This document shows positions 26,550-60,197 of a stretch of DNA of 64,000 nt, in pieces. Made by a program: the position numbers and the translations under genes. The DNA is from an uncultured Thermoplasmatales archaeon (GTDB lineage: Archaea > Thermoplasmatota > E2 > UBA202 > DSCA01). Each line of letters starts with the position of its first letter. The stretch's first letter is position 1. Location: positions 11,772 through 75,771 of the forward strand of contig CAYPWJ010000005.1 in the NCBI GenBank assembly GCA_964414415.1. The letters run 5' to 3'. Below the pieces are notes generated by a model. That model saw only the letters and a program-made list of their open reading frames with translations. It made no database searches and had not been told where the DNA came from.

Positions 26550-26556
26550 AGGGACG

Positions 26557-30500: not shown

Positions 30501-32228
30501 GACTGGGTGCCTCCCGGACGGCTTGAAAAGCAAAAAGAGGAGCATACGCCTTTCGAGGAGCCGCGCACGCTGGAAACTCCTTACTACGTGAACGGCCGGG
30601 TGAAGACGCTGCTGCTCAACGTCGTCCCGCTCACCATTGACGGGGAGACGCTCATCTACGGCATCGGGCAGGACATCACGGAGCGAAAGCAATACGAACG
30701 ACGGCTCCGGGAAACGAAAAACCGGTACCAGTCGCTGTTTGACAACTCCCTGGTAGGCAGCATGCTGACCACCCCTGACGGCGACATCGTTGAAGCAAAC
30801 AACGCCTTAACGACCATCCTCGGTTACGACAAAAGCGAGCTAGGAGAGATGGACGCGGCAGACCTGTACCGGGATGCATCCGACAGAGAAAAGATACGGG
30901 AACTGATGGAAAAAAACGGCATCCTTATGGGCTACGAGACAACCCTGCAACACCAGGACGGGTCAGATGTCACGGTTCTCCTCAGCATCTCGAAAGTCGA
31001 CATCGAAGGCAAACCGTTCTATCAGAAGACGTGCCTCGACATCACCCGGCGGAAACAGGTGCAGCGCGAGCTGCAGGAAAGCGAGGAGAAATACCGGGCT
31101 ATCGTTGAGGGCAGCCACGACGCCATCTTCATCTACCGCGGCGACGAGTTCCTGTTCGTCAACGACCGCGCGGCGGAGCTCACCGGGTACAGCGAGGATG
31201 AACTCATGGACCTGCCCATCTGGGACCTCATCCACCCGGACGACCTCGACATGGTGAAAGACGTCCACCGGAAATGGGTGCAAGACGAGGACGCGCCCAA
31301 CGTCTACCAGGCCAGGATAGTGACCAAGGACGGCGACGTCCGACATTGCGAGTTTTCGATGACGGCCATCTCCTACCACGGCAGGGAGGCAGCCATGGGC
31401 GCCGTCCGGGACATCACCCGGCAAAAGCAGGCGGAGAAGGAACGTGAGCGATACATCAACGAGCTCCAGTTCACCGCGGACACCATCATATCGGTAAGCC
31501 GTATGCAGGATGTCGACGAGATATGCCAGATGGTCGCCAGACAGGTACACGAGGTGAACGACGATGCAGTCGTTGCGGTGTCTCTGTATGACCCAGAACG
31601 GGAGGCCATCACCATCAGAGCGGTGGAAGGCATCGGAGACAGGACACAGCGGCTCTTCGACCTGTTCGGCTTCGACCCCACCGAGCAGAGCATTGGGCGG
31701 GAAAAAATGAAGGAAGCGTCGGGGCTCTACGCCACCGGCACCCTCGAGCAGGTGCCCGGCGGCCTCCACCAATTGATGGGCGGCACGCTGCCAAAGGCCG
31801 CCTGCAACGCTGCTGAAAAACTATTTGGGATAGACGCAACATACACCGTCGGCTTCGCCCTGGGCAGCGACATGCCCTACGGCGGTATATCCATCTTCGT
31901 GCCCGAGGGACAAGAGCTGCAGTATCCATCGGCCATCGAGACCGTCGCCAGCCACGTGTCGACGGCGCTGCAGCGCCGGCAGGCCGAGGAGGAACGCCAA
32001 AAAGCCCTGGAGGAGATGGAGCGTGCGCTGGAGCTCGAAAAGCATTTCAAGGCCGACGCGGCGCATTTCTTCCTCAACCCGATCGCCATCGCCAAGGGAT
32101 ACATGGAGCTCGGGATTGAGGAGATGCCGGAGGAATCCGAGGAGAAGATACATCGGGCGCGGAAGGCCATCAAACGGGTGGAGACGGTCATCAAAAACAT
32201 CGTAGAAAAAGGCGAAATACATGAATAA
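27573..32228 (+). CDS. giant multi-sensor protein: REC, GAF, about 8 PAS/PAC modules, and a C-terminal H-box dimerization region without an ATPase domain
   Basis: REC (LLIEDNPADARL...VLLDLGLPDSQG), GAF (SDYHHVRIFLTDELGEAQLG...), repeated PAS cores with recurring ITERK(Q/K)AE(E) linkers, and a terminal ...EKHFKADAAHFFLNPIAIAKGYMEL H-box. No N/G1/G2 ATP-binding boxes follow. The ATG at 27573 overlaps the upstream stop. Confidence 0.8.
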   Translation: MTVVHTLLIEDNPADARLVEEMLAGLDDIQFDITMRESLADGAAFLDDHEADVVLLDLGLPDSQGMETFKSMHQKAPLVPIVVLTGLKDEELAVEMAREGAQEYLVKDTISSEVLTHTIQYAIERKNVEKHMHRLNSLLQAIREINQLIVRESDPEELITQTCNALASVSDYHHVRIFLTDELGEAQLGICADQDGTTKYPESGIPVCMERAIADSDIVAVETMGSMCSECPWNGSYDEEYNAVAIPLSYLGNVYGALSVLIPTERQEIAEEEGLFKEVADDLAFALYDLELEEKHRETEERYQQLVESTPGLICQLDPDGTTRFVNSYVEELMGYTVEEVVGEDWWSLFYPGDTREQVDELYDRFKADDDVRGFEMEMTDKHGERHIISWNSFNQWENGALQKIFGVGVDVTERETFLEKLKEKHRETEAMLESMLNAFVLFESVFDEDGNFVSYRFVYINKAYEEMTGVKLEDVKGKTVHEVWPDTEPEWIKRYGEVAVTGESQTFDLYHDPTGKVYHCNVYRPYDTQEKFCVIFEDITDWKQAQQELKAREKKFREIFHNANDAMYLHTLTDDGMPDRFIEVNDVACEMLGYTREEFLEMSPMDIDDPDAPTDVPAVMQDLLDEGHATFEMRHVAKDGSRVPVEISSHAFTLNGEQLVLSIARDITERKKRQRRLESSQEIAHVGSWEIDLATGDLSWSDETCRIFGVPVDEPVDYDTFLDFVHPEDRDHVDEKWNEALQTGEYDIEHRILVDGTTKWVREKADITFDGQGEPVEAIGSVQDITERKEREKTERELRQRIEAGLQAGNLAWWEMELPSGDVVFDDRKAEMLGYEPEHFETYEDFTELLHPDDYERAMQAMRDHLQGREENYEVEYRIRTSDGTYRWFRDVGGITERGEETGHTRVIGIVEDITERKQAQQELEKQERKLRMLFMETQNPILVANDEDVHVDANQAALDFLECDMETLRGTTPWDWVPPGRLEKQKEEHTPFEEPRTLETPYYVNGRVKTLLLNVVPLTIDGETLIYGIGQDITERKQYERRLRETKNRYQSLFDNSLVGSMLTTPDGDIVEANNALTTILGYDKSELGEMDAADLYRDASDREKIRELMEKNGILMGYETTLQHQDGSDVTVLLSISKVDIEGKPFYQKTCLDITRRKQVQRELQESEEKYRAIVEGSHDAIFIYRGDEFLFVNDRAAELTGYSEDELMDLPIWDLIHPDDLDMVKDVHRKWVQDEDAPNVYQARIVTKDGDVRHCEFSMTAISYHGREAAMGAVRDITRQKQAEKERERYINELQFTADTIISVSRMQDVDEICQMVARQVHEVNDDAVVAVSLYDPEREAITIRAVEGIGDRTQRLFDLFGFDPTEQSIGREKMKEASGLYATGTLEQVPGGLHQLMGGTLPKAACNAAEKLFGIDATYTVGFALGSDMPYGGISIFVPEGQELQYPSAIETVASHVSTALQRRQAEEERQKALEEMERALELEKHFKADAAHFFLNPIAIAKGYMELGIEEMPEESEEKIHRARKAIKRVETVIKNIVEKGEIHE

Positions 32229-32658
32229 AAAGTGTATCCTCGTCGTGGACGACGAGCCGGACATCCAGGAAATCCTGCGGGCCTACCTTGAGCGCATCGA
32301 TACCGTCACGGCGGTGCCAGCGCTGAGCGGCGAAGACGCCGTTGCCACCTATCGAGAGCTCGCCGATGGCGGCAGGACGCCGGCGATGGTCGTCATGGAC
32401 CTCAACCTCTCCGGCAGCAACTCCGATGAAGAGATCATCGACGCGCATCGTGCCGGCGAAGGTGAAAGCATGGACGGCGTCCGGACCGCCGAACGCATTC
32501 TGGATGCCGACGGCGACGCCGTGATATGGGGCTACACGGCCTGGTCGGACACGGCGTGGGGCGACCGCCTGCGTGAGGCCGGCGCTCGGAAGGTCGTCGA
32601 CCGCACCGTCTCCTTCAAGGAGTTCGCCGGCATGGTGGAATCATTTATGGCGGAGTAG
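32221..32658 (+). CDS. stand-alone receiver domain protein with an insertion
   Basis: ILVVDDEPDIQEILRAYL ... VVMDLNLSGSNSDEEI. It overlaps the stop of the giant sensor. Confidence 0.65.
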   Translation: MNKKCILVVDDEPDIQEILRAYLERIDTVTAVPALSGEDAVATYRELADGGRTPAMVVMDLNLSGSNSDEEIIDAHRAGEGESMDGVRTAERILDADGDAVIWGYTAWSDTAWGDRLREAGARKVVDRTVSFKEFAGMVESFMAE

Positions 32659-32907
32659 CACGACGGCGCCGGTATCGGTACAAAAAGGCGGTCTGCAGGA
32701 GGATTGAGGTGGAGGCAAACGCCGTCAAAAAAAGTGACGAGTTTGGGGCTCAATCCTCCGTTGCCCTCTGAAAGGGCTGACCGACCGCACTATAACAACG
32801 GTTAATAATATATAAAACTTTCGTTTACTGGACCGGGTCGGGGCCCTGCGCAGGAAAACGACGTTCACGACTGCAAATGTTATATATCGTTCTCAGTTGA
32901 AAGACAC

Positions 32908-35634
32908 ATGAGGGATGGAGCGACGCAGAGACAGACCGGCGGAGAGCAGGCAGCAGTGTCCACCGGAGACCACGACCATCTCCCGCTCCCCTACCAGTCG
33001 CTCGACGAGCAGGGTCGCATCCTGGACGTCAACCGCTGCTGGCTGGACACCCTCGGCTACACACGCAGCGACGTCATCGGCACCTGGTTCGGCGACCTGC
33101 TGCCGCCCGGGCAGCAGCAAAAATTCAAAAAAATGTTCCCCCGGTTCAAGGAAGAGGGAAGCATCCATGGATGCGAGCTGCAGCTCCTGAAAAAAGACGG
33201 CGGCACCATCCGCGCCTCCTTCAACGGAACGATAGCCTACAGGGACGACGGCTCCATCGAGCAGACGCACTGCATGTTCGAGGACATCACGGCGCTGCAC
33301 GAGACGGAGGAACGCTTCCGCCACCTGTATGAGAATGCAACCGTCGGCCTGTACCGGACGACGCCCGACGGCAGGATACTCATGGCCAACCCCGCCGCGG
33401 TGGATATGCTCGGCTACGACTCCTTCGAGGAACTGGCAGGGCGCGACCTCGAGGACACGGGCTACGAGCCGGGCTACCCGCGACGCAGATTCAAGGAGAT
33501 GATTGAAGAGCAGGGCGAGGTCCACGGCCTGGAGAGCGCCTGGAAGCGCAAGGACGGCAGCACCATCTACGTGCGGGAGAGCGCCAGAGCCTACTACGAC
33601 GACGATGGCCACATCAAGTACTACGAGGGCAGCGTCGAAGACATCACCGAGCAGAAGGAGGCCGTCACGCAGCTGCGGCGGCACATGGAAAACATGGAGT
33701 ACATAGCGGGGACAGCCAGGGAGTTCATGGAGCTCGAAGGGAGAGAAAAAGCATACGACTACATCGCCAGCTGCATCCATCAGCGCGTCGAAGACGGCGT
33801 GGTCATCGTCAACTCCTACGACGAGGAACGAGAGCTCTCCCGCGTCGAAGCGGTAGCCGGCATGGACAAAAAGCTGGAAAAGATAAGCGAGGTGCTCGGC
33901 CGGCATCCCGTCGGCATGGAATTCCCCATCAAAGGCACGGCAAAGCAGGAGATGCTGTCCGGCCGCCTGATGACCGGTCCGTCCGGGCTCTACGAGCTCT
34001 CAGCCGGGACGATTCCGCGTCCCGTCGCCGCGATGCTCGACCGACTGGTGAACGTCAACCAGATATACGGCATGGGCCTCACGAGGAAGAATACCCTGTA
34101 CGGCAACGTCGTCGTCATCACCACCTCGAGCGACGCCCGGGTGGAACCCGAGGTGCTCGAGGCGCTGATAGGCCAGGCTGCCATCTGGCTGCAGCGACAC
34201 CAGGCTGTGCAGGCACTCCGGAGAAGCGAGAAAAAATATCGGACGCTGTTCGAAAACATGGCGCAGGGCGTCTTCTACCAGCGCCCCGACGGCACCTTCG
34301 TTGACGTCAATCAGGCCGCCCTTGACATGTTCGGGCTGACCCGGAGCGAGTTCCTGAACCGCGATTCGACGCATCCGGACTGGCACGTCATCTCTGAGGA
34401 CGGCGAGGAGCTCCCGCCAGATGAGCGTCCCTCACGGGTGGCGCTGTCGACCGGCAGACCGGTGACCGACGTCACTGTCGGTGTCTCCAGTCCGGACGAC
34501 GATAGCTACACGTGGATGAGCGTCAACGCCATCCCGCAATACCGGGAGGATGAAGACGAGCCGTATCAGGTGTTCGTGACCCTCCAGGACGTCACCGCTC
34601 GGAAGAAGATGCATGATGCGCTCGCCGACAGCAAACGGGAGCTGGAGCTGACCCTGAACGCGACCACCGACGGCATCTGGACGTGGAACTTCAAGACCGA
34701 GGAGATGGAGTTCAGCCCCGGCTACTACACGATGCTCGGCTACGAGCCCGGCGCGTTCGAGCCATCATTCGAAAACTGGGTCTCCCTCATCCATCCAGAT
34801 GACCGGGAGGAAGCGCTGGAGACCGCGGAGGAGTACCTGGAGACAAAGCCCGACCACTACGAAAACGAGTTCCGCCTCCGCACCAGGGACGGCGGCTACC
34901 GGTGGATTCGGTCGCACGCCCGCGTCGTCGAGCGCAACGACGACGGAGCGGCGGTCCGCATGATCGGCAACCACGAGGACATCACGGAACGCAAGCGGAC
35001 CCATCTCGAGCTCAAACAGTCGCTGGAAGAAAAAAAGGTGCTACTCCGGGAGGTCCACCACCGCGTGAAAAACAACCTGCAGGTCATCTCGAGCATGCTC
35101 CAGATGGAATCCAGCCAGCATGATGACCTAGAGGCGAGGCAGGCGCTGCAGGACATGCAGCTCCGCATCAAGTCCATGGGGCTCGTCCACGAACACCTCT
35201 ACCAGTCGCCGGAGCTCTCGCACGTCGACGTCCAGGAGTACCTCACCCAGCTGGCGCACAACGTCATGCAGACATACAGCCGCGGCGAGCATCCTGCGCT
35301 CGACCTCGACGTGCAGGAGATGGAGCTGCCGCTGGACAAAGCCATACCATGCGGCCTCGTTGCGACCGAGCTGCTGTCGAACGCCTTCCGGCATGCCTTC
35401 CCCGACGGTCAGGCGGGAACCGCCCGTCTCTCGGCTCGATGCAGCGACGGGAAATGCATCCTGACGGTGAGCGACGACGGCGTCGGCATGCCCGAGGATA
35501 CGAACGGCGAGACGCTCGGATTGCAGCTCGTCGACGTGCTCGCGGCGCAGCTGGACGGCACCGTCACGTTCACCGGCGAGGAGGGCACCACGGCCACCCT
35601 GACGTTTGCCATGCCCAGCGAGGTGACACCGTGA
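32908..35634 (+). CDS. multi-PAS sensor histidine kinase of HisKA_2 type (HATPase_c_2)
   Basis: At least 5 PAS/PAC repeats. H-box EVHHRVKNNLQVISSML is the HisKA_2 signature. C-terminal ATPase LVATELLSNAFRHAF...DDGVGMP. Confidence 0.85.
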   Translation: MRDGATQRQTGGEQAAVSTGDHDHLPLPYQSLDEQGRILDVNRCWLDTLGYTRSDVIGTWFGDLLPPGQQQKFKKMFPRFKEEGSIHGCELQLLKKDGGTIRASFNGTIAYRDDGSIEQTHCMFEDITALHETEERFRHLYENATVGLYRTTPDGRILMANPAAVDMLGYDSFEELAGRDLEDTGYEPGYPRRRFKEMIEEQGEVHGLESAWKRKDGSTIYVRESARAYYDDDGHIKYYEGSVEDITEQKEAVTQLRRHMENMEYIAGTAREFMELEGREKAYDYIASCIHQRVEDGVVIVNSYDEERELSRVEAVAGMDKKLEKISEVLGRHPVGMEFPIKGTAKQEMLSGRLMTGPSGLYELSAGTIPRPVAAMLDRLVNVNQIYGMGLTRKNTLYGNVVVITTSSDARVEPEVLEALIGQAAIWLQRHQAVQALRRSEKKYRTLFENMAQGVFYQRPDGTFVDVNQAALDMFGLTRSEFLNRDSTHPDWHVISEDGEELPPDERPSRVALSTGRPVTDVTVGVSSPDDDSYTWMSVNAIPQYREDEDEPYQVFVTLQDVTARKKMHDALADSKRELELTLNATTDGIWTWNFKTEEMEFSPGYYTMLGYEPGAFEPSFENWVSLIHPDDREEALETAEEYLETKPDHYENEFRLRTRDGGYRWIRSHARVVERNDDGAAVRMIGNHEDITERKRTHLELKQSLEEKKVLLREVHHRVKNNLQVISSMLQMESSQHDDLEARQALQDMQLRIKSMGLVHEHLYQSPELSHVDVQEYLTQLAHNVMQTYSRGEHPALDLDVQEMELPLDKAIPCGLVATELLSNAFRHAFPDGQAGTARLSARCSDGKCILTVSDDGVGMPEDTNGETLGLQLVDVLAAQLDGTVTFTGEEGTTATLTFAMPSEVTP

Positions 35635-46506: not shown

Positions 46507-47745
46507 TTAAGCGTTGCCGTCAACAGCTTGGTTCTGTCCTAAAAATTCTTGCAATCTATCTCTATTTGCCTCAGGAAATTTATCTTTATATAGCACTAAT
46601 ACTCGGTCTATTTGTGTAGCTTGGCCCTTTTTTTCATCTCCCCATATCCGACTGACTTTGTTTTCGGTGGGAAGTTTATCTTCAATGATTGAAGCAAGTT
46701 TAAACTGCGTGTGAGGAGCTACCTCTTCCCAGAGCACGTTTGCCAATTTTGTGTGTCTCTCTTCGTTTCTTTTTCCTATGTCACCGACAACGATTGCGGC
46801 CACGCCGTTATCTGCTAGCACCGACTCTATACTATGAAGGAATGTTAAGAAAAATTCGCCATAATTCCGACGGGAATATGCGTCGCTCAAACATTGGTCA
46901 ACTTTTTTTGGGTCAATATCAAGTAGCCATAGTCGAATCCAATTGTATTTCCCATATTTTATAATATTTATATAGGGAGGGGAACAAACCACCAATTTAA
47001 CGCTGTTTTTTTCAAAATATTGGTTTTGAATTGAGGGTAAATCTCTAACATCTGCCAGATATGCTTTTCCTCGATTTGCAGGCAAATCATCCTCATATAG
47101 CCTATCAAGTTTATGTCTCAAGTTGTCGAAGGCATCTAAAGGTAATTTTTTCAAATTTTTTTCTTTGATATAGTTTCTTACATAGTTGGGAGACATGCTA
47201 AAGGTGTTCGGCATACTTATGCTGAGATAACTAGAGGTGTTACCGGATTTGTGATGCTGACCGTGTAAAATTCCTGCTAAGCAAGCTAATAAGAATCTGT
47301 CAATATCATCATTTTTATCAAGATTGTTTTTCAGATATACTATCTGTTCCAAGGTGGATTCATGAAAAAGCATCGATATATCATCGGGAACACTGCGAAT
47401 GTTATCTCCCCCAAAGTTGGTAGATAGCTCTAATATTCTATCTAATGCCTCATCTTTAGTGGGGGGTTTGAGTTTAGCTTCTGTTATGAGATGCGCTAGA
47501 GGATTCAAGTCTACACCTACTCCAACTCTACCTTCAAGACATGCTTGCAAAGGGGTAGTACCACTCCCACAAAACGGGTCAAGCACAACATCTCCTTCGT
47601 CGCTAAATAATTGAATAAAGTAATGTGGAATCCTTGGAGGAAAACTTGCCATATAAGAGCACATAGAATGAAATGAGTGCCCCCATCTTTTCCGAAGTAA
47701 TCGCCAACGATTCTCATCCCACTTTGTTTTCGCCATTATATTCAC
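46507..47745 (-). CDS. DNA N6-adenine/N4-cytosine methyltransferase (N6_N4_Mtase-type motifs)
   Basis: AdoMet motif I block SFHSMCSYMASFPPRIPHYFIQLFSDEGDVVLDPFCGSGTT near the N-terminus and catalytic motif IV VVCSPPYIN about 190 aa later. Confidence 0.85.
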   Translation of the reverse strand: MNIMAKTKWDENRWRLLRKRWGHSFHSMCSYMASFPPRIPHYFIQLFSDEGDVVLDPFCGSGTTPLQACLEGRVGVGVDLNPLAHLITEAKLKPPTKDEALDRILELSTNFGGDNIRSVPDDISMLFHESTLEQIVYLKNNLDKNDDIDRFLLACLAGILHGQHHKSGNTSSYLSISMPNTFSMSPNYVRNYIKEKNLKKLPLDAFDNLRHKLDRLYEDDLPANRGKAYLADVRDLPSIQNQYFEKNSVKLVVCSPPYINIIKYGKYNWIRLWLLDIDPKKVDQCLSDAYSRRNYGEFFLTFLHSIESVLADNGVAAIVVGDIGKRNEERHTKLANVLWEEVAPHTQFKLASIIEDKLPTENKVSRIWGDEKKGQATQIDRVLVLYKDKFPEANRDRLQEFLGQNQAVDGNA

Positions 47746-50012
47746 AGATTCATGGACTCGGTGAGTCTCTCAATGGATATAAGAGAATGTATAATAGTTC
47801 TTGCGGCTCTTTGTAACTCTGACTCAAATACTTCCTCTGGTATGTCGGGGATGCCATCGGCCTCCATTTCCGGTAATTCTTCTTTTCGATAGAAGTGTTG
47901 TAACCACGCACAAAAAGCTACGTACACCGTATAGTTATCTTTGAACCGGTTTATCCATTTCTCAGAATAGCGTGATTTCTCCAGTTGCTCTTTAAAGTAA
48001 TGAAATTCCATAGAAACCAATATGTCTATTGAATCAGCCTCCTCTTTTACCTCTGCAACATTATTCTCGTCCCAACCTAACCTTTCCCACGCCGGCGTTT
48101 GTTTTGATACTCGTCTTATATTTGGAAGCGAGATTTTTCTTTTTGTCCCTTCTCCATAATCAGCTGTGGGTGGCTCTTTTACAATCCCTTTCCGTTCTTC
48201 TTTAAGTGGACTCTGATTTGGCCGGGTTAACACTGCTGTTATTGATACTTCCTCCCCTATTTCAGCTTCGTCAGATGTTTCTAAAAAGCAGCGAAGTCTT
48301 CCTCCATCAAAATAGGAATGTCCCCTAACATTTATGTGGTCTTCGGGCTCTATTAGCAACAATATTTTATTTTGTCGACTCAAATAACCATCTTCTGCAT
48401 CGCTCTCTATCTTCAATTGGGAAGAACGGCCTTTCACCAGAGGGATTGGATCTTGCTTATTTGCGATTTTTATGTAGGTGGGGATTTCCCGGGTCTCAAG
48501 AGGCTCTGGCGGGGTATAGCTTCCTCTCTTAGACGTTCCTGTCTGTGTTTTATCCCCAGAGGATGTGCCGCCTACAGTCTCGGTTTCCCCTCTAACGTAG
48601 TCAATTAATTTTCCTAATTCCTCTTTCAATTTTTGCGTTTCTTCTTCACTTGTCTCTGATAAAATCTCTTGGTGTCTTTGTTTCTCTAATGCCCTCAGAT
48701 CATCATCATTTCTTAAAGCGGTGCGGATAGCTTCCTCCATTTGATCACGGACCATACCTTTATTGAGCCTCTCACGTGTGGAACTAAATAATTCTCTCTT
48801 ACCTTTTGCAGTAAGAGTGTCACAACTTACCTCTACAATGAGATATTTTGATAAGTAGGGTAACTGTAATTTATTTCTGATAAAAGAGCGGGAAAGATAA
48901 CCATGGGTTTGCCCGTAATGAGTGAAGTAAATAGGGTGTCGTTTATCAACATAAGCCTCAACAGGATAGGACTTATCGGGATCATGCCTCAGTACCCAAT
49001 AACGGACTATCACTTTGCCATATTTTCCCGTAGGTCTTAAATTTACCTCACAGACGTCACTTTTTTCTATCAAATCACGTGGATCACTCTGCAGACGGGT
49101 ATAATTCCCAGCAATTGTCCTAGACTTAGTTTTCTTCCTATTATCCGTTACATAGACAGGCAGCACCGGATCAAATAAGGAACTTTGAATGAGCCACCAC
49201 AAACTGCCAGTAGGTGCTGTCAGAGTTGCTGAATATTTTGGAAGCTCAAAATCAATATGTTTGATGTAAGTGCCTTCAAAATTATTACCTAAACCCAACT
49301 CTGTTGGCGGAATTGTTAATACTTCATTTTCATCTGTTACAAGATACTCGTAAGTACCATTTTTGTATTTTTCTGGATCTCGTTCTCCATAACGGACGAT
49401 CGTCATACCTACCACATCTTCTGCGTCCTCCCCTAGTAAGTCGGGTGGACGGCGGGAAATAATAATTGTATATTTACTATATCTGAAAGTTGTCTGTCCT
49501 CCCTGGCCATAAGCTCCTGCTAGATATAGCTTAGTTAATTTATTACTCTCGTTTAGGCTTAAAAGAGTATTAGGAAAATCAAGCGGATGTTGCCCGACGC
49601 CTTTATCCCGAATTACCAGGGTAGGAGTTCTCCTTTTTGACCCTTTATACATTTGTATTTGGATATTATTTTTCGCCAATTTCCGTCTCTCTGTAGAGGT
49701 AAGAGTATCCAAATGCCCGGTTTTTACTCCAAACCATTCTTCTACCGCTTCCCTTGGATTATCCGGGTAGTTATCCATCTCCGGATTTTCAAGGGCAGCT
49801 CTTTCTAATATTGCATCAATGGCATTAGTGAGTCTCTCAATAAAGCCCTCCCCAGGATCTGCACCCATATTTATAACGCCAACATTGTTTTCTTTATCGC
49901 CCACCGGCCGCCATTGTAAGTTATATTTATCCTCTACTTTATTAATAAAACCCTCCATTTCGGTAGCTTCATTGATATTCAATAGTTCTTCCATCTCGCT
50001 TTCTGTAAACAT
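47742..50012 (-). CDS. large GHKL (Bergerat-fold) ATPase protein, prokaryotic MORC/paraMORC-like; C-terminal about 500 aa unassigned
   Basis: N-terminal N box GFIERLTNAIDAILERA (ExxxNxxDA), G1 box VIRDKGVGQ (DxGxG) and G2 box GAYGQGGQTTF (GxxGxG). The 4-nt overlap with the MTase suggests translational coupling. Same AT-rich codon usage. Confidence 0.7.
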   Translation of the reverse strand: MFTESEMEELLNINEATEMEGFINKVEDKYNLQWRPVGDKENNVGVINMGADPGEGFIERLTNAIDAILERAALENPEMDNYPDNPREAVEEWFGVKTGHLDTLTSTERRKLAKNNIQIQMYKGSKRRTPTLVIRDKGVGQHPLDFPNTLLSLNESNKLTKLYLAGAYGQGGQTTFRYSKYTIIISRRPPDLLGEDAEDVVGMTIVRYGERDPEKYKNGTYEYLVTDENEVLTIPPTELGLGNNFEGTYIKHIDFELPKYSATLTAPTGSLWWLIQSSLFDPVLPVYVTDNRKKTKSRTIAGNYTRLQSDPRDLIEKSDVCEVNLRPTGKYGKVIVRYWVLRHDPDKSYPVEAYVDKRHPIYFTHYGQTHGYLSRSFIRNKLQLPYLSKYLIVEVSCDTLTAKGKRELFSSTRERLNKGMVRDQMEEAIRTALRNDDDLRALEKQRHQEILSETSEEETQKLKEELGKLIDYVRGETETVGGTSSGDKTQTGTSKRGSYTPPEPLETREIPTYIKIANKQDPIPLVKGRSSQLKIESDAEDGYLSRQNKILLLIEPEDHINVRGHSYFDGGRLRCFLETSDEAEIGEEVSITAVLTRPNQSPLKEERKGIVKEPPTADYGEGTKRKISLPNIRRVSKQTPAWERLGWDENNVAEVKEEADSIDILVSMEFHYFKEQLEKSRYSEKWINRFKDNYTVYVAFCAWLQHFYRKEELPEMEADGIPDIPEEVFESELQRAARTIIHSLISIERLTESMNL

Positions 50013-53746: not shown

Positions 53747-53861
53747 GCACGTCTCCGGCGGATAATAAATGCACGTATAAACCATATAAAAATAATCCGA
53801 ATATTTATAAACAAGTATTACATTCATTATATGAACGCTCACAAAATGGGAGGTGCAAAAT

Positions 53862-56210
53862 ATGATAAAAATTGCAGCATCCTGCATGGCCGCCGTTCTG
53901 CTCCTGTCCCTCTGCGCAGCTCCGAGCACCATACAGGGCGATGATTCATCCGGCATTCATGGCGGCAGATACGATAGAGTCCAGGTTGCAGACAGCGGCG
54001 ACGGCGACACACTCTACGTCGGCGGCTCCGGAACCGGCAACTACACCACGATACAGGCGGCGGTAACAGCCGCAAAAGACGGAGACACCGTCTTTGTCTA
54101 CGATGACTCATCTCCATATTATGAGAACGTGGTGGTGCAGAAATCCATCCAGCTGGAAGGAGAAAACAGGCATTCCACCGTCGTAATCGGGGTACTAAAT
54201 ACGCCGACGATTGTAATCGCTGCTGACGATGTCATCCTGTGCAGGGTTACTGTCCACCACACGCAGCGAAGTCCATTTCGAAGCGAAAGCGACGGCGTGT
54301 CCATTCGAGGTGCCAACGTAACCATCCAGAATAACTACATCTCTGAAAACTGGAACCACGGCATATCAGTCAGAGGTGCCTCCAGCGTCCGCATCGTGGA
54401 CAACGAAATCAACCGCAACATATGGGTCAACATCTACATGGCTGATGCAACGGATGCCATCATTGCAAACAACACCATCGTCCGAGCCAAGCTGAACGTG
54501 CTGCTTCGCGGCGCTTCACACAATACCATCAGCTCCAACGTCATCGGCCACTCCAACGGCCTCCACATGGATGGTGCATCAAGCCATAACAGCATCGTCG
54601 CCAACACCTTCGAAAACTGCGGAGACAGCATCACGATGCGCGACGGCTGCAGCGACAACCGCATATCAGACAACCGCATCACCGAGAGCTCCAGGATCGG
54701 AGTTATAATCCACGAGGGATGCCTCCGCAACACCGCGAGGAACAACACGTTCACGAGGACGACCATAGGGATAGAATGCCGTTCGCCGAGCACGATAGAA
54801 AAAAATACATTTACCCGGAGCGGCATACGCATTTTTTCGAAAGGCAACAGAGTGGAAGGCAACACCGCCAACGGCAAACCGATTATCTATCTGGAAAACC
54901 GTTCACACGTCGCGGTGAATGAATCTCCCGGACAAGTCATCCTCATATGCTGCGACAACGTCACTATCGACAACCATACGATAGCGAACACGAGCGTGGG
55001 CGTACAACTCTGGCATTCCCGCTACTGCAGCATTGCAAACACCACGTGTACCGGAAACACCGTCGGCATCCACATCGGTTCATCCAGCCACATCCATGTC
55101 GCTGACAATGTCCTCCAAGACAACGAAAACGCTCTGCATATACAGGGGACACAGAACACCGTAGCCCATAACCAGCTTCTATCAAACATGGACGGCATCT
55201 GGCTTGGCTACAGCAGCAACAACAGCATCCAAGACAACCATGTAGCCAACACCCGATACACCGGCATCGACCTCTACGATTCATCCGAAAACAGGATAGA
55301 AAACAACACTCTGATCGATGGGTTCTACGGCATCCACGTGAGGTATTCCTCAAACAATCGTTTCCTCTATAACGTGTTCAAAAGCAATAGCGAAGGTATA
55401 TCGCTCGACAGTGGCACCAGCAACGTTATCGTACATAACGCTCTCTACGATGACGGGCTGCGCGTCCGTCAGGTGGCATCGCTCCGCTCTAACGTCATCA
55501 GAAACAATACCGTGAACGACAAACCGCTTGTCTTGTGGGAGGAAAAAACAGATGAAATCCTGCCTGACGTGGGTCAGGCCATCCTCGTCGGGTGCAGCAA
55601 CGTCACCCTCCGCAACCAGACTATATCAGACACGACAACCGCCGTAACGCTCTGGAATTGCACTAATTGCAGGATTTCTAGCTGCGACATATATGCCAAC
55701 AGCGACGCTGGGATAGAACTACACACATCATCCTGCAACGTCATCCACGACAACCAGCTCCACTCCAACCGATACGGCATCAGACTCTACGACTCCTCCT
55801 CAAACGATATTTCGGGGAACACCCTGTTAGCCGGAGGGTTGCTTATCTCTCGGTCAGACGAAAACCTTGTTAGCGGCAACCGTTTCTCTGCAAACGAGAG
55901 AGCTGTATCTATCGATGCTTCGTCCGGCAACCGCCTCAAAGACAACATCTTCTCCGAGAACAACAACGCAATGGTGGTAGCCCAGAGCAACGGCAACCAT
56001 ATCCATCGCAACGACTTCATAGATAACGAGAACGACGTCATCCTCTACTCATTCCACAACCTCTGGACGAGAAACTACTGGGATACCTGGCACATGGCAG
56101 CCCCGAAGCCGATACTCGGGCATCTCGGGCAGGGAATCCTGACAAACCTCCCGTGGCTAAACGTCGACTGGTGCCCACGGCTTATGCCGCAGGAGGCCGA
56201 CACCGGATGA
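53862..56210 (+). CDS. secreted right-handed parallel beta-helix repeat protein (NosD/PbH1-like)
   Basis: Signal peptide MIKIAASCMAAVLLLSLCAAPS. Many about 22-aa beta-helix coils with N-x-I/V-x-x-N patterns (e.g. IQNNYISENWNHGISVRGAS). C-terminal NYWDTWHMAAPKPILGH...NVDWCPRLMP motif. Confidence 0.75.
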   Translation: MIKIAASCMAAVLLLSLCAAPSTIQGDDSSGIHGGRYDRVQVADSGDGDTLYVGGSGTGNYTTIQAAVTAAKDGDTVFVYDDSSPYYENVVVQKSIQLEGENRHSTVVIGVLNTPTIVIAADDVILCRVTVHHTQRSPFRSESDGVSIRGANVTIQNNYISENWNHGISVRGASSVRIVDNEINRNIWVNIYMADATDAIIANNTIVRAKLNVLLRGASHNTISSNVIGHSNGLHMDGASSHNSIVANTFENCGDSITMRDGCSDNRISDNRITESSRIGVIIHEGCLRNTARNNTFTRTTIGIECRSPSTIEKNTFTRSGIRIFSKGNRVEGNTANGKPIIYLENRSHVAVNESPGQVILICCDNVTIDNHTIANTSVGVQLWHSRYCSIANTTCTGNTVGIHIGSSSHIHVADNVLQDNENALHIQGTQNTVAHNQLLSNMDGIWLGYSSNNSIQDNHVANTRYTGIDLYDSSENRIENNTLIDGFYGIHVRYSSNNRFLYNVFKSNSEGISLDSGTSNVIVHNALYDDGLRVRQVASLRSNVIRNNTVNDKPLVLWEEKTDEILPDVGQAILVGCSNVTLRNQTISDTTTAVTLWNCTNCRISSCDIYANSDAGIELHTSSCNVIHDNQLHSNRYGIRLYDSSSNDISGNTLLAGGLLISRSDENLVSGNRFSANERAVSIDASSGNRLKDNIFSENNNAMVVAQSNGNHIHRNDFIDNENDVILYSFHNLWTRNYWDTWHMAAPKPILGHLGQGILTNLPWLNVDWCPRLMPQEADTG

Positions 56211-57772
56211 CAAAAAACCTCGTAGCCATACACGTGGTTTTCTTCCTTCTCGCCAGCGCTCTGACCCCGACCGCCGGCATCTACAGTGCCCAGAGCGAAG
56301 CGCCTGATCCCGATAGCGTGAGGGTGCAGCTGACTGGAGACGCCGCCACCCTCCATGTCGGTGGCTCAGGACCCGGCAACTATAGCAGCATTCAGGCAGC
56401 TGTCGACGACGCCAGGGACGGAGACACCGTGTTCGTCTACGACGATTCGTCGCCGTATTATGAGAGCGTTTTCATCGATACGTCAATCCATCTGCTGGGT
56501 GAACGGAAAAACACGACGGTCATCGACGGCCGGAAAAACACGACGGTGCTCCGTATAACGGCGGACCGGGCACGGGTCAGCAACTGTACCATCCAGCACG
56601 GCGGCGGACTCGACGACGTCGGAGCAGGGATACATCTCGCCGGCGATGAAAACACGGTTTCCGGCACCGTCATCAAAGACAACCTGGCCGGCCTGGTCCT
56701 CACCCATGCCAGCCACAATGTCGTCACCCGAAACGTTATCGCGGGCAACGGATGGCGGGGCATCCAGTTCCTCCACTCCCACCACAACGCCATCACGGGA
56801 AACCATTTCCACAATAACTGGGAGCACGCCGTCGAGCTCCACATCGACAGCCACCGCAACACCATATCCTGCAACAGGTTTACCCGGGACAGGCCGGAAT
56901 ACCACAATACGCTGCAAATCGGCAGCGACGAAGGCCGCGCCGCCCACACCGTCATAGCCAACAACACATTCGTCGGCGGCGGTCTCACCGTCGAAAGCGG
57001 GAACAACAACACCGTCCGGGACAACCTCGTCAACGGGAGACCCCTCGTCTACATGGAAAACACGGCCGGCGCCAGGATAGACAATGCCGGGCAGGTCATC
57101 CTGGTAAACTGCACCGACATCACGGTGGAAAACCTGCATCTCTCCCGGCTGCACGTCGCCGTAGAACTCGTGGGTTCACGCCGATGCTGCATCCGCAACA
57201 ACACTGTCAGCGGGTGCATGCACGGGATAGCACTTGAGCGGTCGGACGACACCGTGCTTTCAGACAACGAGCTGGTAGACGACACCGTTGCCATTTACCT
57301 CTGGTTTTCACAGCGAAACAGCGTTATCAATAACCGCTTGAGGCACAACAACAACGGAATGAGGCTGTTTTACCGCGCCAGCGGCAACGTCATCTCTGGC
57401 AACGAGCTGGTAGACCAGGTCGATGCAGTGACGTTGACCTCGATATGTACCGGAAACCTGGTCAGATGCAACACCATCGCCGGCAGTGCCGCCGGGCTGA
57501 CGGTAACGGCTTCACCGCTCAACAGGGTCATACATAATACCATCCGCGGGAGCCACGACTGGGGGCTCTGTCTCGCCATGAGCCACGGGACAGTGGTGTG
57601 CTCCAACATCTTCATAGAAAATGCCCTCCATGCAACCTTTGGATCCTCCCGCTTCACCCTGTGCCTGCGGAACTACTGGGACGACTGGCACATGCTGCTG
57701 CCCCGGCCTATCGAGGGAAAATATACCGCGTATGACTGGTGCCCCCGCCTGCTCCCCGCCGGCCCGTGCTGA
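56207..57772 (+). CDS. secreted parallel beta-helix repeat protein (paralog of the upstream gene)
   Basis: Same N-terminal architecture (LHVGGSGPGNYSSIQAAVDDARDGDTVFVYDDSSPYYESV versus the upstream LYVGGSGTGNYTTIQAAVTAAKDGDTVFVYDDSSPYYENV) and the same C-terminal NYWDDWHMLLPRPIEG...DWCPRLLP motif. ATGA overlap with the upstream paralog. Confidence 0.75.
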   Translation: MTKNLVAIHVVFFLLASALTPTAGIYSAQSEAPDPDSVRVQLTGDAATLHVGGSGPGNYSSIQAAVDDARDGDTVFVYDDSSPYYESVFIDTSIHLLGERKNTTVIDGRKNTTVLRITADRARVSNCTIQHGGGLDDVGAGIHLAGDENTVSGTVIKDNLAGLVLTHASHNVVTRNVIAGNGWRGIQFLHSHHNAITGNHFHNNWEHAVELHIDSHRNTISCNRFTRDRPEYHNTLQIGSDEGRAAHTVIANNTFVGGGLTVESGNNNTVRDNLVNGRPLVYMENTAGARIDNAGQVILVNCTDITVENLHLSRLHVAVELVGSRRCCIRNNTVSGCMHGIALERSDDTVLSDNELVDDTVAIYLWFSQRNSVINNRLRHNNNGMRLFYRASGNVISGNELVDQVDAVTLTSICTGNLVRCNTIAGSAAGLTVTASPLNRVIHNTIRGSHDWGLCLAMSHGTVVCSNIFIENALHATFGSSRFTLCLRNYWDDWHMLLPRPIEGKYTAYDWCPRLLPAGPC

Positions 57773-57943
57773 AAACCACGCATCGGCGGGGAGTTAAACG
57801 TGATTTTAATCCTGTTCAACCGGTGTTAAACTGACATTTATATCGCCGGGGCTTCATTTGAAGCAATGGCACCCACGGCCCTCTGGGACAGAGCGGAAAC
57901 ATGCTTCGGACGGCCGCGCTCCTCCTGGACGACGGTGGATGAG

Positions 57944-59230
57944 ATGATCTACGATACCGACAGCTACTTCGACGGCGACCGGGAGAAGATGCGGGAGGCT
58001 CGCTTTGCGGCGACCAAGGAATCCCTGCGGCATCACTACGAGCACAGCCGCTTTTACAACCGGCTCTGCCGGGAGTACGACTTCACGCCCGACGAGGTGC
58101 AGAGCGAGGACGACCTGCACAGGGTCCCCATGGTGCCCGACACCTTCTTCAAGGAATACCCGTCGGAAGATCCACGCCGGGTCTACGAATGGCTGCGAAA
58201 GGTGACCACGGTGGACATCGGCGAGTATGACTACACCGGCAGGTCGCTGCAGGGCTTCCTCCGCTGGGCCGAGCAGCGCCTCCAAGGTATGGTCAACCAT
58301 TCGTCGGGGACCACCGGCAACTACAGCTTCATGTTCCGCGACCGGGTCACCTTCAAGCGCTTCTACTACGCGGCGGTGACCACGCTGCTGGCTGTCTCGC
58401 CGCCGCGCAGCGAGCCGCATTACGTCTATCCGGGCTCCCCGAACACCTATCTCACGCTCGGCCGATGGATCGGCGAGGGCGCCCGCATTTTTAAAGAGAG
58501 CAGGCAGCATTTCCTGACGGATAGAGAGATCACGATGGACGTCGCCCGGCTGCTGTCGACCGGGCAGCCCCGCGGCCTCAGGGACAGACTGAAGCTGCTG
58601 ATGCTCCGGCGGGCCATGAAAAAAGGCGAAAAAAAGCTCGTCGACCGGCTGCAGCGCCTCGACAAGCGCAACGAGCAGACCTACGTCATCGGCCCCCCGT
58701 TCCAGATATACAGCGTCATGCAGCGGATGCGCAAGGACGGCGTCAGCCTGTCACTCGGCGACGACGGCGGCGCCATGGTCACCGGCGGCGGATGGAAAAT
58801 ATATGAAGACCGGAAGGTGTCGGAGCAGGCGTTCGCCGCGATGGCCGAGGAAACGCTGGGCATCCCGCCGGAGCGCTACGTGGATGTCTACGGCATGTCG
58901 GAGATGAACGGGCTGGCCGTCTCGTGCGAGGGACGATACAAGCACCTGCATCCCTGGATCTATCCGATGGTACTCGACGACAACGAGGGGATGCTCGGCT
59001 ACGGGGAATGGGGACGGTTCGCGTTTCTCGACCCCGTGGCGCACAGCTACCCGGGCTTCATCATCACCGGCGACCGCGTCAGGCTGCTCGAGGAATGCCC
59101 CGCCTGCGGCAAAACGGGGCCGGTCCTGGACAACGACATCGGCCGGATGGCCGGCGCCGAGGCGAAGGGATGCGCCAACCTCATGCGGGGGTTGATGGCA
59201 AACGAGCTGAAAAAAGCGGAGGAAGCATAA
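57944..59230 (+). CDS. ANL-superfamily adenylate-forming enzyme (PaaK/LuxE/coenzyme-F390-synthetase-like)
   Basis: AMP-binding P-loop HSSGTTGNYSF. Overall length and layout match phenylacetate-CoA-ligase-like enzymes. The internal Met at 57944 was chosen. Confidence 0.6.
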   Translation: MIYDTDSYFDGDREKMREARFAATKESLRHHYEHSRFYNRLCREYDFTPDEVQSEDDLHRVPMVPDTFFKEYPSEDPRRVYEWLRKVTTVDIGEYDYTGRSLQGFLRWAEQRLQGMVNHSSGTTGNYSFMFRDRVTFKRFYYAAVTTLLAVSPPRSEPHYVYPGSPNTYLTLGRWIGEGARIFKESRQHFLTDREITMDVARLLSTGQPRGLRDRLKLLMLRRAMKKGEKKLVDRLQRLDKRNEQTYVIGPPFQIYSVMQRMRKDGVSLSLGDDGGAMVTGGGWKIYEDRKVSEQAFAAMAEETLGIPPERYVDVYGMSEMNGLAVSCEGRYKHLHPWIYPMVLDDNEGMLGYGEWGRFAFLDPVAHSYPGFIITGDRVRLLEECPACGKTGPVLDNDIGRMAGAEAKGCANLMRGLMANELKKAEEA

Positions 59231-59231
59231 C

Positions 59232-60197
59232 ATGCTGAAAGAGCTCCGGGAGAAAGGATACTTTTTTGACGGTGAATGGATCCGCACGTTTGGGCGGGCG
59301 CTGCCGTCGCTCATCGCCATCGCGCTCCGGCATCCGCTGCTCGTCGTCCATGCAAATCGTGCCTGCCCCAAGGGACCGGAGAACCTGCAGCCGGATGAGC
59401 TGCCCTACGAGATTCCCTCGTATGATGCAGCGATGGAGTGCGGCGTCACGGGCGAGCGGTACCTCCGGCCGACGTATCTGTGCGATCCCTGCAGCGAGGA
59501 CATCGTCGCGATGGCGCACGAGCTCGGTGCCTTCGAGATGGACGACTGGAGCTACGCCGAGCGGGTGTTCCAGTTCGTCAACCGGAACATACGGGTGGAT
59601 TTTTCGCCTATCAAATCTGCGACCGAGACGCTCCAAAAGGGGCACGGCACCTGCATCGACAAGATGTCGCTGTTCATCGCGCTGTGCAGAGCTGCAGGGA
59701 TACCGGGTCGCTACAGGCTGTACAGCCCCACCGGCGTGCAGGCGCTCTACGACATCTATTTCTCCGCGGATCCCCTGGTACAGCGGTGGTTCGACGCCCT
59801 CGGTTTCTTCATCCTGCACGGCAGCGCGGAGGTGTACGTCAACGATGAATGGGTCATCAGCGATGTCTCCGCTGATTTCTATCACACCATAGCGGCCAGG
59901 ATTCCAGTGCCGCATTTCGGTGAGGACCCGGCTGACACATGGATAAAGCCGGCTCGGGGCGTCATGCAGAAGGAGGGGCTCCCGCTTGGATTGAAAGCTA
60001 TCGGCAGCCTGCCGTTCGTGCTGTTCGGCGGCACCGGCCGCGCTGTCAACGCCAGCGTCAAGGCCAACCTGGAGGAGGGGAAACGGCTGCTTGAAGACAC
60101 CACGCTGGAGGAGTACGACCGGGAGATCCGGCGGGACTACGAGCCGAAATGGATCGAGTCGGCGCAGAAGGCCACCAGGGTTCTGGATGAACTGTAG
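59232..60197 (+). CDS. transglutaminase-like cysteine protease-fold protein
   Basis: Core motif QKGHGTCIDKMSLFIALCRAAGIPGRY (Cys nucleophile in G-x-C, then LF-AL-RA-GIP-R), with a His/Asp-bearing region downstream (ILHGSAEVYVNDEWVISD). It starts 1 nt after the adenylating-enzyme stop. Confidence 0.7.
   Translation: MLKELREKGYFFDGEWIRTFGRALPSLIAIALRHPLLVVHANRACPKGPENLQPDELPYEIPSYDAAMECGVTGERYLRPTYLCDPCSEDIVAMAHELGAFEMDDWSYAERVFQFVNRNIRVDFSPIKSATETLQKGHGTCIDKMSLFIALCRAAGIPGRYRLYSPTGVQALYDIYFSADPLVQRWFDALGFFILHGSAEVYVNDEWVISDVSADFYHTIAARIPVPHFGEDPADTWIKPARGVMQKEGLPLGLKAIGSLPFVLFGGTGRAVNASVKANLEEGKRLLEDTTLEEYDREIRRDYEPKWIESAQKATRVLDEL

What the first reader, a model, noticed from the sequence alone, without database searches (positions are those of the whole stretch)
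53862..57772. Tandem beta-helix surface-protein paralogs sharing a distinctive C-terminal motif
Both proteins end with NYWD(T/D)WHM..P.PI.G...DWCPRL.P after the beta-helix repeats and lack a PGF-CTERM or obvious TM anchor. The conserved Trp/Cys/Pro-rich tail could be a novel sorting, anchoring or cap domain. The genes overlap (ATGA), indicating co-expression of the two paralogs.
Basis: seen in the sequence. Interest (0 to 1): 0.5.

Follow-up and report, generated by a model that had tools for sequence, protein, structure and literature searches.

The report
End-cap of archaeal beta-helix surface proteins
The shared Trp/Pro-rich tail on these two neighbouring archaeal beta-helix proteins is the ordinary folded end-cap of a very large Thermoplasmatota family of NosD-like exported proteins, not a new sorting or anchoring signal.

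Summary
Two co-oriented genes (53862-56210, 782 aa; 56207-57772, 521 aa) overlap by ATGA. Both encode NosD/Beta_helix proteins with N-terminal signal-like helices, and both end in NYWD.WHM..P.PI.G...DWCPRL.P with no C-terminal hydrophobic segment.

The tail is not peculiar to these genes. A tail-only profile finds 2,550 protein clusters (50% identity) in 1.84 billion. Consensus: N.W..NYW.RPR.LPK.I.G-(loop)-PW.NFDW.PA.EPYDI.
- 102 of 103 long hits carry the Pfam NosD domain; no alternative passenger domain was found.
- In two-module proteins the tail closes each module and is followed by a short linker and a new N-cap.
- AlphaFold2 models it as a confident (pLDDT 81-95) last irregular coil plus hairpin.
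- The Cys of DWCPRL occurs in only 5 of 255 copies.
- It aligns weakly (hhalign P 0.001) with the canonical NosD-type module end, NYWsDY..DGDGIGDtPY.I.G...D.YPL.

One side finding: a syntenic relative has flanking genes 83-91% identical but a single beta-helix gene only 33% identical. The slot therefore holds a fast-diverging surface protein whose caps are better conserved than its body.

Interest is low to moderate.

The parts
53804..53855 (+). AT-rich upstream region with a TATA-like TTTATAAA (53804-53811) and a Shine-Dalgarno-like GGGAGGTG (53848-53855) before gene 1. It is the likely promoter and ribosome-binding site of the two-gene unit.
   Evidence: Read directly from the sequence. Promoter function is inferred, not tested. 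The bacterial-type scan is not informative for an archaeon.
53862..56210 (+). Gene 1: 782-aa NosD-like right-handed parallel beta-helix protein. It has a signal-like N-terminal helix (aa 2-18), a disordered linker (aa 20-46), an N-cap (TLYVGGSGTGNYTTIQAAV..DGDTVFVYDDSSPYYENV), a long beta-helix with two NGKP...GQVIL segments, and the C-terminal tail.
   Evidence: Pfam NosD 8.6e-67 and Beta_helix 1.8e-63. AF2 mean pLDDT 88.7, pTM 0.84. Identical 782-aa gene call in GCA_905333555.1.
56058..56189 (+). Tail (C-cap) of protein 1, aa 733-776: NLWTRNYWDTWHMAAPKPILGHLGQGILTNLPWLNVDWCPRLMP.
   Evidence: Translation. Tail HMM score 64.6 bits (this sequence is part of the model). AF2 strands 734-736, 749-754 and 764-769 with a short helix 759-762; 10-residue block pLDDT 95, 93, 81, 88, 82 over residues 731-780.
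56207..56210 (+). ATGA start/stop overlap of genes 1 and 2, with GGAGG at 56192-56196.
   Evidence: Sequence. Tight same-strand packing of tail-bearing beta-helix ORFs recurs in at least 10 related loci.
56207..57772 (+). Gene 2: 521-aa NosD-like beta-helix protein with a signal-like helix (aa 3-18), a disordered linker (aa 20-43), an N-cap, a beta-helix and the C-terminal tail.
57656..57757 (+). Tail (C-cap) of protein 2, aa 484-517: TLCLRNYWDDWHMLLPRPIEGKYTAYDWCPRLLP. This is the shortest loop version of the family tail.
   Evidence: Translation. AF2 strands 485-487, 500-504 and 508-510; block pLDDT 96, 95, 94, 89.

Best explanation
The two genes form a small operon encoding paralogous, Sec-exported right-handed parallel beta-helix proteins of the NosD-like (CASH/pectin-lyase-fold) superfamily. 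This family is hugely expanded in Thermoplasmatota.

The shared tail is the C-terminal cap of the beta-helix module. NYW ends the last regular coil. The P(K/R)PI.G strand and the (PW.N.)DW.P strand then form a final irregular coil and hairpin, with a variable loop between them. I infer that its Trp, Pro and aliphatic residues cover the open end of the hydrophobic core and block edge-strand association. It is a folding and stability element of the domain, not a signal read by a sorting or anchoring machine.

Any attachment to the cell most plausibly comes from the N-terminus: a signal peptide or uncleaved signal anchor followed by a ~25-residue flexible linker. The body of the helix is the functional, fast-evolving surface and probably binds or processes glycans. 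The two caps are the constrained parts.

Shown here: the architecture, the family-wide distribution, the exclusive association with NosD-type helices, the module-end position, the confident folded model, the absence of a C-terminal hydrophobic segment, and the non-conservation of the Cys.

Inferred: the capping mechanism itself, export, surface location and glycan-related function.
For: 1. The tail-only profile (46 positions) finds 2,550 clusters at E<=1e-3 and 731 at E<=1e-10 among 1.84 billion representatives. In nearly all of the best 150 the match lies within a few residues of the C-terminus.
2. Of 103 such proteins of at least 250 aa, 102 carry Pfam NosD and 99 carry Beta_helix. No alternative domain recurs.
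3. Fourteen of the 266 fetched proteins have two copies. In P0024, P0028, P0047, P0056, P0088 and P0092 the internal tail is followed by a short linker of about 15-30 residues and a fresh N-cap, LYVGG.GPGNY...DGDT.FVY. In P0010 the tail is followed by a linker and further sequence.
4. AF2 models of both window proteins place the tail as short strands continuing the coil pattern, with pLDDT 81-96.
5. Only 3 of 114 relatives have any hydrophobic stretch in the last 40 aa, whereas 104 of 114 have an N-terminal signal-like segment.
6. Residue x of D-W-x-P is H in 116 copies, R in 71 and C in only 5 of 255.
7. The Pfam NosD model ends at NYW in both tail types. hhalign aligns the tail end-to-end with the canonical NosD-type module end found in paralogs of the same genomes (P 0.0011).
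8. In the syntenic relative, the N-cap is 55-68% identical and the tail about 40%, against 20-30% for the helix body. This is as expected if the caps are structurally constrained.
Against: - No coordinates were available, so burial of the tail residues against the last coil was not measured. 'Cap' rests on secondary structure, confidence, position and distribution.
- The tail is almost always within 15 residues of the stop codon (73/74 in genome loci; 243/247 in fetched proteins). A C-terminal signal would show the same pattern.
- The hhalign link to the canonical cap is weak (probability 21%).
- The very high conservation of surface-type residues (W, R, K, H, EPYDI) is more than a minimal cap needs, and could reflect an additional binding role.
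Confidence: 0.8

Rival explanations
1. The tail is a cap that also serves as a docking or oligomerisation element. For example, it could bind the cell envelope or S-layer glycans, or pair the co-expressed tandem paralogs end-to-end. In that case it would contribute to surface retention without being a processed sorting signal.
For: Conservation is stronger than a simple cap seems to need: W, R/K, H and the EPYDI end are near-invariant across thousands of clusters. The position is almost always terminal. Tail-bearing genes are frequently arranged in tight tandem arrays (15 of 54 tail-bearing loci). No other anchor apart from the N-terminal helix is evident.
Against: There is no direct evidence of any partner. 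The window proteins have lost the EPYDI end and the H/R position, so the putative binding residues are not maintained here. Two-module proteins tolerate the tail internally.
Confidence: 0.12
2. The tail is a new C-terminal sorting or anchoring signal recognised by a dedicated enzyme, analogous to archaeosortase/PGF-CTERM or sortase/LPXTG. Lipidation or cross-linking might occur at the Cys of DWCPRL, perhaps involving the neighbouring LuxE-like acyl-protein synthetase and transglutaminase-like protein.
For: The position is terminal in about 98% of proteins. LuxE-like (57866-59230) and transglutaminase-like (59232-60197) genes lie immediately downstream, and the same neighbours are kept in the syntenic relative L084.
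Against: - There is no hydrophobic helix or basic tail after the motif, and no NCBIfam sorting-signal hit.
- The tail is restricted to one passenger fold (102/103 NosD), unlike true sorting signals.
- It occurs internally at module ends and is modelled as folded domain.
- Cys is present in 5 of 255 copies.
- tblastn finds no LuxE, TGase, EamA, HMGR or DUF3147 homolog within about 4 kb of any of 80 related loci. The L084 synteny simply reflects a close relative whose flanking genes are 83-91% identical.
Confidence: 0.04
3. The shared motif only reflects a recent local duplication of one gene and has no wider significance.
For: The exact ...D(W/L)CPRL(L/M)P spelling was seen only in the two window proteins and in P0014, the single gene in the same syntenic slot of a relative.
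Against: The two proteins are only 31% identical overall, so any duplication is old or the copies have diverged fast. The tail consensus is shared by 2,550 clusters and by many Thermoplasmatota genomes.
Confidence: 0.02

Closest known systems
Pfam PF05048 NosD / PF13229 Beta_helix proteins of archaea ('parallel beta-helix repeat protein', CASH-type surface proteins)
   Same: Both window proteins score far above the gathering thresholds. They share the N-cap, the ~22-residue coils and the NGKP...GQVIL motif with hundreds of relatives. Like most relatives, they have an N-terminal signal-like segment.
   Different: The Pfam model stops at NYW. The 30-45 residues after it (RPR.LPK.I.G...PW.NFDW.PA.EPYDI) are not covered by any Pfam or NCBIfam model I scanned. 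In the genome scan they were found only in Thermoplasmatota.
Canonical NosD-type module end: GGNYWsDYtG.D.dGDGIGDtPY.IpGG.N.D.YPLm.P
   Same: It has the same position directly after the last regular coil, the same NYW start, and the same '(P-aromatic-x-hydrophobic)...D-x-x-P' ending. hhalign aligns the two end-to-end (P 0.0011). It occurs in paralogs from the same genomes.
   Different: The acidic DGDGIGD loop is replaced by a basic, proline-rich RPR.LPK.I.G segment plus a variable loop. Canonical ends are usually followed by more domains, with 100 to over 1000 aa downstream, whereas the variant tail is terminal in about 98% of cases. Homology is only weakly supported (probability 21%).
NosD of the NosDFY complex (PDB 7O0Y), nitrous-oxide reductase maturation
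   Different: TIGR04247 scores are 171.8 and 128.7 against a cutoff of 300. No nosZ, nosF, nosY or nosL are nearby. Per PMC13452462, canonical NosD is anchored on NosY and carries a His-Met-Met copper site, and 'nosD-like' proteins lacking these are proposed there to act in adhesion or sugar binding. I did not test the His-Met-Met site.
Capping motifs of beta-solenoid / beta-helix proteins
   Same: A non-repeat terminal element seals the open end of a repetitive beta-helix. It is better conserved than the body and is present at each module end. From my own knowledge, unprotected solenoid ends fray or aggregate and most natural beta-helices carry caps. The literature search lists papers on this theme, for example PMC13288671.
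   Different: This particular sequence motif has not, to my knowledge, been described. Its capping contacts were not measured here.
Archaeal C-terminal sorting signals (PGF-CTERM/ArtA and relatives)
   Same: Only the C-terminal location on exported proteins.
   Different: There is no hydrophobic helix and no basic tail, the element is tied to one fold, and it can be internal.

Membership tests
Pfam NosD (PF05048) / Beta_helix (PF13229) right-handed parallel beta-helix proteins | Score above the Pfam gathering threshold | tested here: met
   NosD 225.1 and 136.1 bits (cutoff 23.6); Beta_helix 213.3 and 118.6 bits (cutoff 25.9).
Pfam NosD (PF05048) / Beta_helix (PF13229) right-handed parallel beta-helix proteins | Right-handed three-strand-per-coil beta-helix fold | tested here: met
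Bona fide NosD (TIGR04247, N2O-reductase maturation) | Score at or above the NCBIfam cutoff of 300 bits | tested here: not met
   171.8 and 128.7 bits.
Bona fide NosD (TIGR04247, N2O-reductase maturation) | Genomic association with nosZ/nosF/nosY/nosL | tested here: not met
   The neighbours are HMG-CoA reductase, DUF3147, LuxE-like, transglutaminase-like and EamA. The synteny is the same in L084.
Bona fide NosD (TIGR04247, N2O-reductase maturation) | His-Met-Met copper site and NosY-binding element | not tested
   These features are described in PMC13452462. No residue-level structural alignment was available.
Thermoplasmatota tail-bearing NosD-like subfamily (defined here) | C-terminal N.W..NYW....P(K/R).I.G-(loop)-D(W).P element directly after the last coil | tested here: met
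   Both proteins align over all invariant columns N, W, P, G, D, P. The best 120 homologs and 2,550 clusters share the element.
Thermoplasmatota tail-bearing NosD-like subfamily (defined here) | N-terminal signal-like segment plus N-cap (L/F)YVGGSGPGNY..IQ.A...A.DGDTVFVYDDSSPYYEN | tested here: met
Thermoplasmatota tail-bearing NosD-like subfamily (defined here) | Family-typical ending H/R at DW(H/R)PA and EPYDI | tested here: not met
   The window proteins end in DWCPRLMPQEADTG and DWCPRLLPAGPC. They belong to a divergent NYWD.W(H/K/R)..PKPI branch together with P0002, P0004, P0005, P0011, P0013, P0014, P0023 and P0118.
PGF-CTERM / archaeosortase-type C-terminal sorting signals | Signature motif followed by a hydrophobic TM helix and a basic tail at the extreme C-terminus | tested here: not met
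   Maximum hydropathy of the last 40 aa is 0.64 and 0.01. There is no NCBIfam sorting-domain hit at E<=0.01.
PGF-CTERM / archaeosortase-type C-terminal sorting signals | Signal attached to many unrelated passenger domains | tested here: not met
   102 of 103 tail-bearing proteins are NosD-type helices.
PGF-CTERM / archaeosortase-type C-terminal sorting signals | Proteolytic processing or lipid attachment at the signal | not testable with these tools
   This needs mass spectrometry of the native protein.
Beta-solenoid C-terminal cap | Non-repeat element at the end of each solenoid module, folded against the last coil | tested here: inconclusive
   Position at every module end is shown and the element is confidently folded. 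Packing contacts could not be measured because the tools return no coordinates.

The most novel reading that the evidence does not exclude
The tail is more than a passive cap. In this reading it is a Thermoplasmatota-specific terminal module that docks these beta-helix proteins onto the cell envelope, or couples tandem-encoded paralogs into heteromeric surface fibres. Together with the hypervariable helix body, conserved caps and conserved genomic slot, this would make the locus a cassette-like variable surface-adhesin system in wall-less or S-layer archaea.
Probability: 0.1. Interest if true: 0.5.

Novelty: new member of a known kind. Interest (0 to 1): 0.2.

Why it matters
For annotation, the result removes a tempting false lead. 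The DWCPRL tail should not be annotated as a sorting or anchoring signal, and these proteins should not be called NosD in the N2O-reductase sense.

It also defines a large subfamily-specific C-terminal cap that current Pfam and NCBIfam models leave uncovered: at least 2,550 clusters at 50% identity, from Thermoplasmatota in every genome locus examined. This cap could serve as a domain-boundary marker for multi-module archaeal surface proteins, and as a natural example for beta-solenoid capping and design studies.

The contrast between 83-91% identical flanks and a 33% identical beta-helix gene marks this slot as a rapidly diversifying surface-protein locus. That may be relevant to virus or host interactions of these archaea.

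Tried and rejected
1. Sequence search of protein 2 against PDB chains gave no hit at E<=0.01.
3. The lipidation/cross-linking idea (Cys of DWCPRL plus the neighbouring LuxE-like and transglutaminase-like genes) was rejected. Cys is present in 5 of 255 tails. No such neighbours occur at 80 related loci. The one shared synteny (L084) is simply a close relative.
4. A lipobox at Cys18 of protein 1 was rejected: the syntenic homolog P0014 has Ala there and protein 2 has none.
5. A search of the 64-kb window for further tail-bearing ORFs found only these two.
6. The cluster look-up for organism names returned no names. The organism is inferred only as a Thermoplasmatota-type archaeon, from the homolog taxonomy and from its class-I LysRS and HMG-CoA reductase genes.
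7. The bacterial promoter/terminator scan is not informative for an archaeon.
8. Model coordinates are not exposed, so direct contact analysis of the tail could not be done.
Full report
**Observation**

The region holds two co-oriented genes. Gene 1 runs from ATG 53862 to the stop at 56208-56210 (782 aa). Gene 2 starts at ATG 56207, so the two share ATGA, and it ends at 57772 (521 aa). Each start is preceded by a GGAGG about 10 nt upstream. Gene 1 is also preceded by an AT-rich stretch containing TTTATAAA at 53804-53811. The public gene calls on the source contig (GCA_905333555.1, CAJOUV010000001.1) are identical.

Both proteins score strongly for Pfam NosD (PF05048) and Beta_helix (PF13229), and they are 31% identical to each other. 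There is no PGF-CTERM or similar NCBIfam hit, and no hydrophobic stretch in the last 40 residues.

**How widespread the tail is**

A homology search with protein 2 returned 1,057 relatives. Of the best 120, about 100 end in the same element, with consensus N.W..NYW.RPR.LPK.I.G-(5-30 residue loop)-PW.NFDW.PA.EPYDI. It usually stops 7-11 residues before the C-terminus.

A 46-position profile of the tail alone was run exhaustively against 1.84 billion cluster representatives. It found 2,550 proteins at E<=1e-3 and 731 at E<=1e-10. In nearly all of the best 150 the match sits at the extreme C-terminus.

A scan of one genome per species returned only Thermoplasmatota MAGs among the best 80 loci (Thermoplasmatales, Thermoplasmata, Methanomassiliicoccales), often with many loci per genome. 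In those loci the tail HMM hit 74 ORFs in 54 loci, and 73 of the 74 matches end within 15 residues of the stop codon. Fifteen loci carry two to four tail-bearing ORFs, mostly tightly packed on the same strand. The tail is therefore not private to these two genes, and tandem arrays are a family habit.

**What the tail is attached to**

Of 103 tail-bearing proteins of at least 250 aa from the exhaustive search, 102 carry Pfam NosD and 99 carry Beta_helix. The other families hit are beta-helix relatives (DUF1565, Pect-lyase_RHGA_epim, Pectinesterase) or singletons. A portable sorting signal would be expected on many unrelated passenger domains. This element is tied to a single fold.

**Position within proteins**

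Fourteen of the 266 fetched proteins have two copies. In P0024, P0028, P0047, P0056, P0088 and P0092 the layout is: signal, N-cap (LYVGGSGPGNY...DGDTVFVY), helix, tail, a short linker of about 15-30 residues, a second N-cap, helix, tail. In P0010 the tail is followed by a low-complexity linker and about 130 further residues. So the tail marks the end of each beta-helix module and tolerates being internal.

**Structure**

AlphaFold2 with family alignments gave confident models: protein 2 has pLDDT 93.1 and pTM 0.88, and protein 1 has pLDDT 88.7 and pTM 0.84. Both show the following:
- An N-terminal helix (residues ~2-18), followed by a disordered linker (to ~43-46).
- A regular three-strand-per-coil beta-helix.
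- In the tail, short strands that continue the pattern: 485-487, 500-504 and 508-510 in protein 2; 734-736, 749-754 and 764-769 in protein 1, which also has a one-turn helix in its longer loop. Block pLDDT in the tail is 81-96.

**Relation to the known NosD-type end**

The Pfam NosD model ends at NYW in both tail types. Paralogs in the same genomes carry the familiar ending GGNYWsDYtG.D.dGDGIGDtPY.IpGG.N.D.YPLm.P, generally followed by further domains. Profile-profile comparison aligns the two endings end-to-end, with NYW on NYW and PW.NfDW.Pa on PY.Ip...D.YPL (P 0.0011, probability 21%). This is modest support that the tail is a diverged, terminal version of the same cap, in which the acidic DGDGIGD loop has been replaced by a basic, proline-rich segment.

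**Against sorting or anchoring**

- Only 3 of 114 complete relatives have any hydrophobic stretch in the last 40 residues, whereas 104 of 114 have an N-terminal signal-like segment.
- The Cys that makes DWCPRL look special occupies a position that is His in 116 copies, Arg in 71 and Cys in only 5 of 255.
- The downstream LuxE-like and transglutaminase-like genes are not found within about 4 kb of any of the 80 related loci.

**A syntenic relative**

P0014 is the only fetched protein outside the window seen to share the CPRL spelling. It lies on a contig with the same gene order: HMG-CoA reductase, DUF3147 (opposite strand), beta-helix, LuxE-like, transglutaminase-like, EamA, epimerase. The flanking proteins are 83-91% identical to those of the window. 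However, there is one beta-helix gene instead of two, and it is only about 33% identical to either window protein.

Along the alignment, the signal and N-cap region is 55-68% identical, the tail about 40%, and the helix body 20-30%, with different coil numbers. The beta-helix genes are also lower in GC than their surroundings: 0.53 and 0.59 against 0.60 in the window, and 0.51 against 0.58 in the relative. The slot therefore holds a fast-diverging, copy-number-variable exported protein whose caps are the constrained parts. This fits a structural cap and a surface-exposed, selected helix body.

**Mechanism proposed**

One promoter drives both genes, and the ATGA overlap with its internal GGAGG suggests coupled translation (inferred). 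Both products are exported via the N-terminal signal. They are then either released or held by an uncleaved signal anchor through the ~25-residue flexible linker (inferred). The beta-helix body is the functional surface and probably binds or processes glycans. That is inferred from fold relatives and from the adhesion reading of nosD-like proteins in PMC13452462. The tail seals the C-terminal end of the helix.

They are not NosD in the functional sense: TIGR04247 scores are 172 and 129 bits against a cutoff of 300, and there are no nos genes nearby.

**Verdict**

The 'sorting/anchoring' reading is not supported, and the 'cap' reading is.

The remaining novelty is modest. This is a large, apparently Thermoplasmatota-restricted cap variant that current domain models do not cover, sitting at a hypervariable surface-protein slot. 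A residual possibility of about 10% is that the strongly conserved tail also mediates docking or oligomerisation.

Noticed in passing
window 46507-50012 (- strand): A low-GC island (0.41-0.45 against about 0.61 for the flanks) holds an N6/N4 DNA methylase (46507-47745, PF01555) and an abutting 755-aa ORF with no Pfam hit (47742-50012). It sits between an FAD-linked oxidase gene and the class-I LysRS gene. It looks like a horizontally acquired restriction-modification or defence-like pair.
   Followed up: partly
window 53862-57772 compared with L084 7001-8755: This is a hypervariable slot. Flanking genes (HMGR, DUF3147, LuxE-like, TGase-like, EamA) are 83-91% identical to a syntenic relative. 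The relative has one beta-helix gene instead of two, only about 33% identical. The caps are better conserved than the body.
   Followed up: yes
homologs P0010, P0016, P0053, P0057, P0117, P0119 (not in the window): Several Thermoplasmatota NosD-like proteins with the canonical cap and extra downstream sequence end in a different conserved C-terminal motif, roughly (L)LRFLERFPLLQRLL. No known sorting signal came to mind. It could be a genuine C-terminal signal worth its own look.
   Followed up: no
window 54001-56000: Gene 1 has a GC content of 0.53 against 0.60 for the window. The syntenic homolog shows the same dip (0.51 against 0.58). The cause could be amino-acid composition (Asn/Ser/Ile/Thr-rich coils) or exchange with lower-GC relatives.
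   Followed up: partly
window 54714-54782 and 55134-55184 (protein 1 aa 285-307 and 425-441): Two low-confidence (pLDDT <50) insertions interrupt the otherwise confident beta-helix of protein 1. They may be surface loops or alignment-poor variable segments.
   Followed up: no
window 24580-35634 (+ strand): A run of ORFs has N-termini that look like response-regulator receivers (e.g. 'LLVEDNPGDARL'), including a 1,551-aa ORF (27573-32228) and a 908-aa ORF. This is apparently a large two-component or hybrid-kinase signalling cluster.
   Followed up: no
window 57866-60197: A LuxE-like acyl-protein synthetase gene is immediately followed by a transglutaminase-like gene with a 1-nt gap. The pair is conserved with the same spacing in the syntenic relative. 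It has its own TATA-like element (about 57838-57845) and is apparently unrelated to the beta-helix genes.
   Followed up: partly
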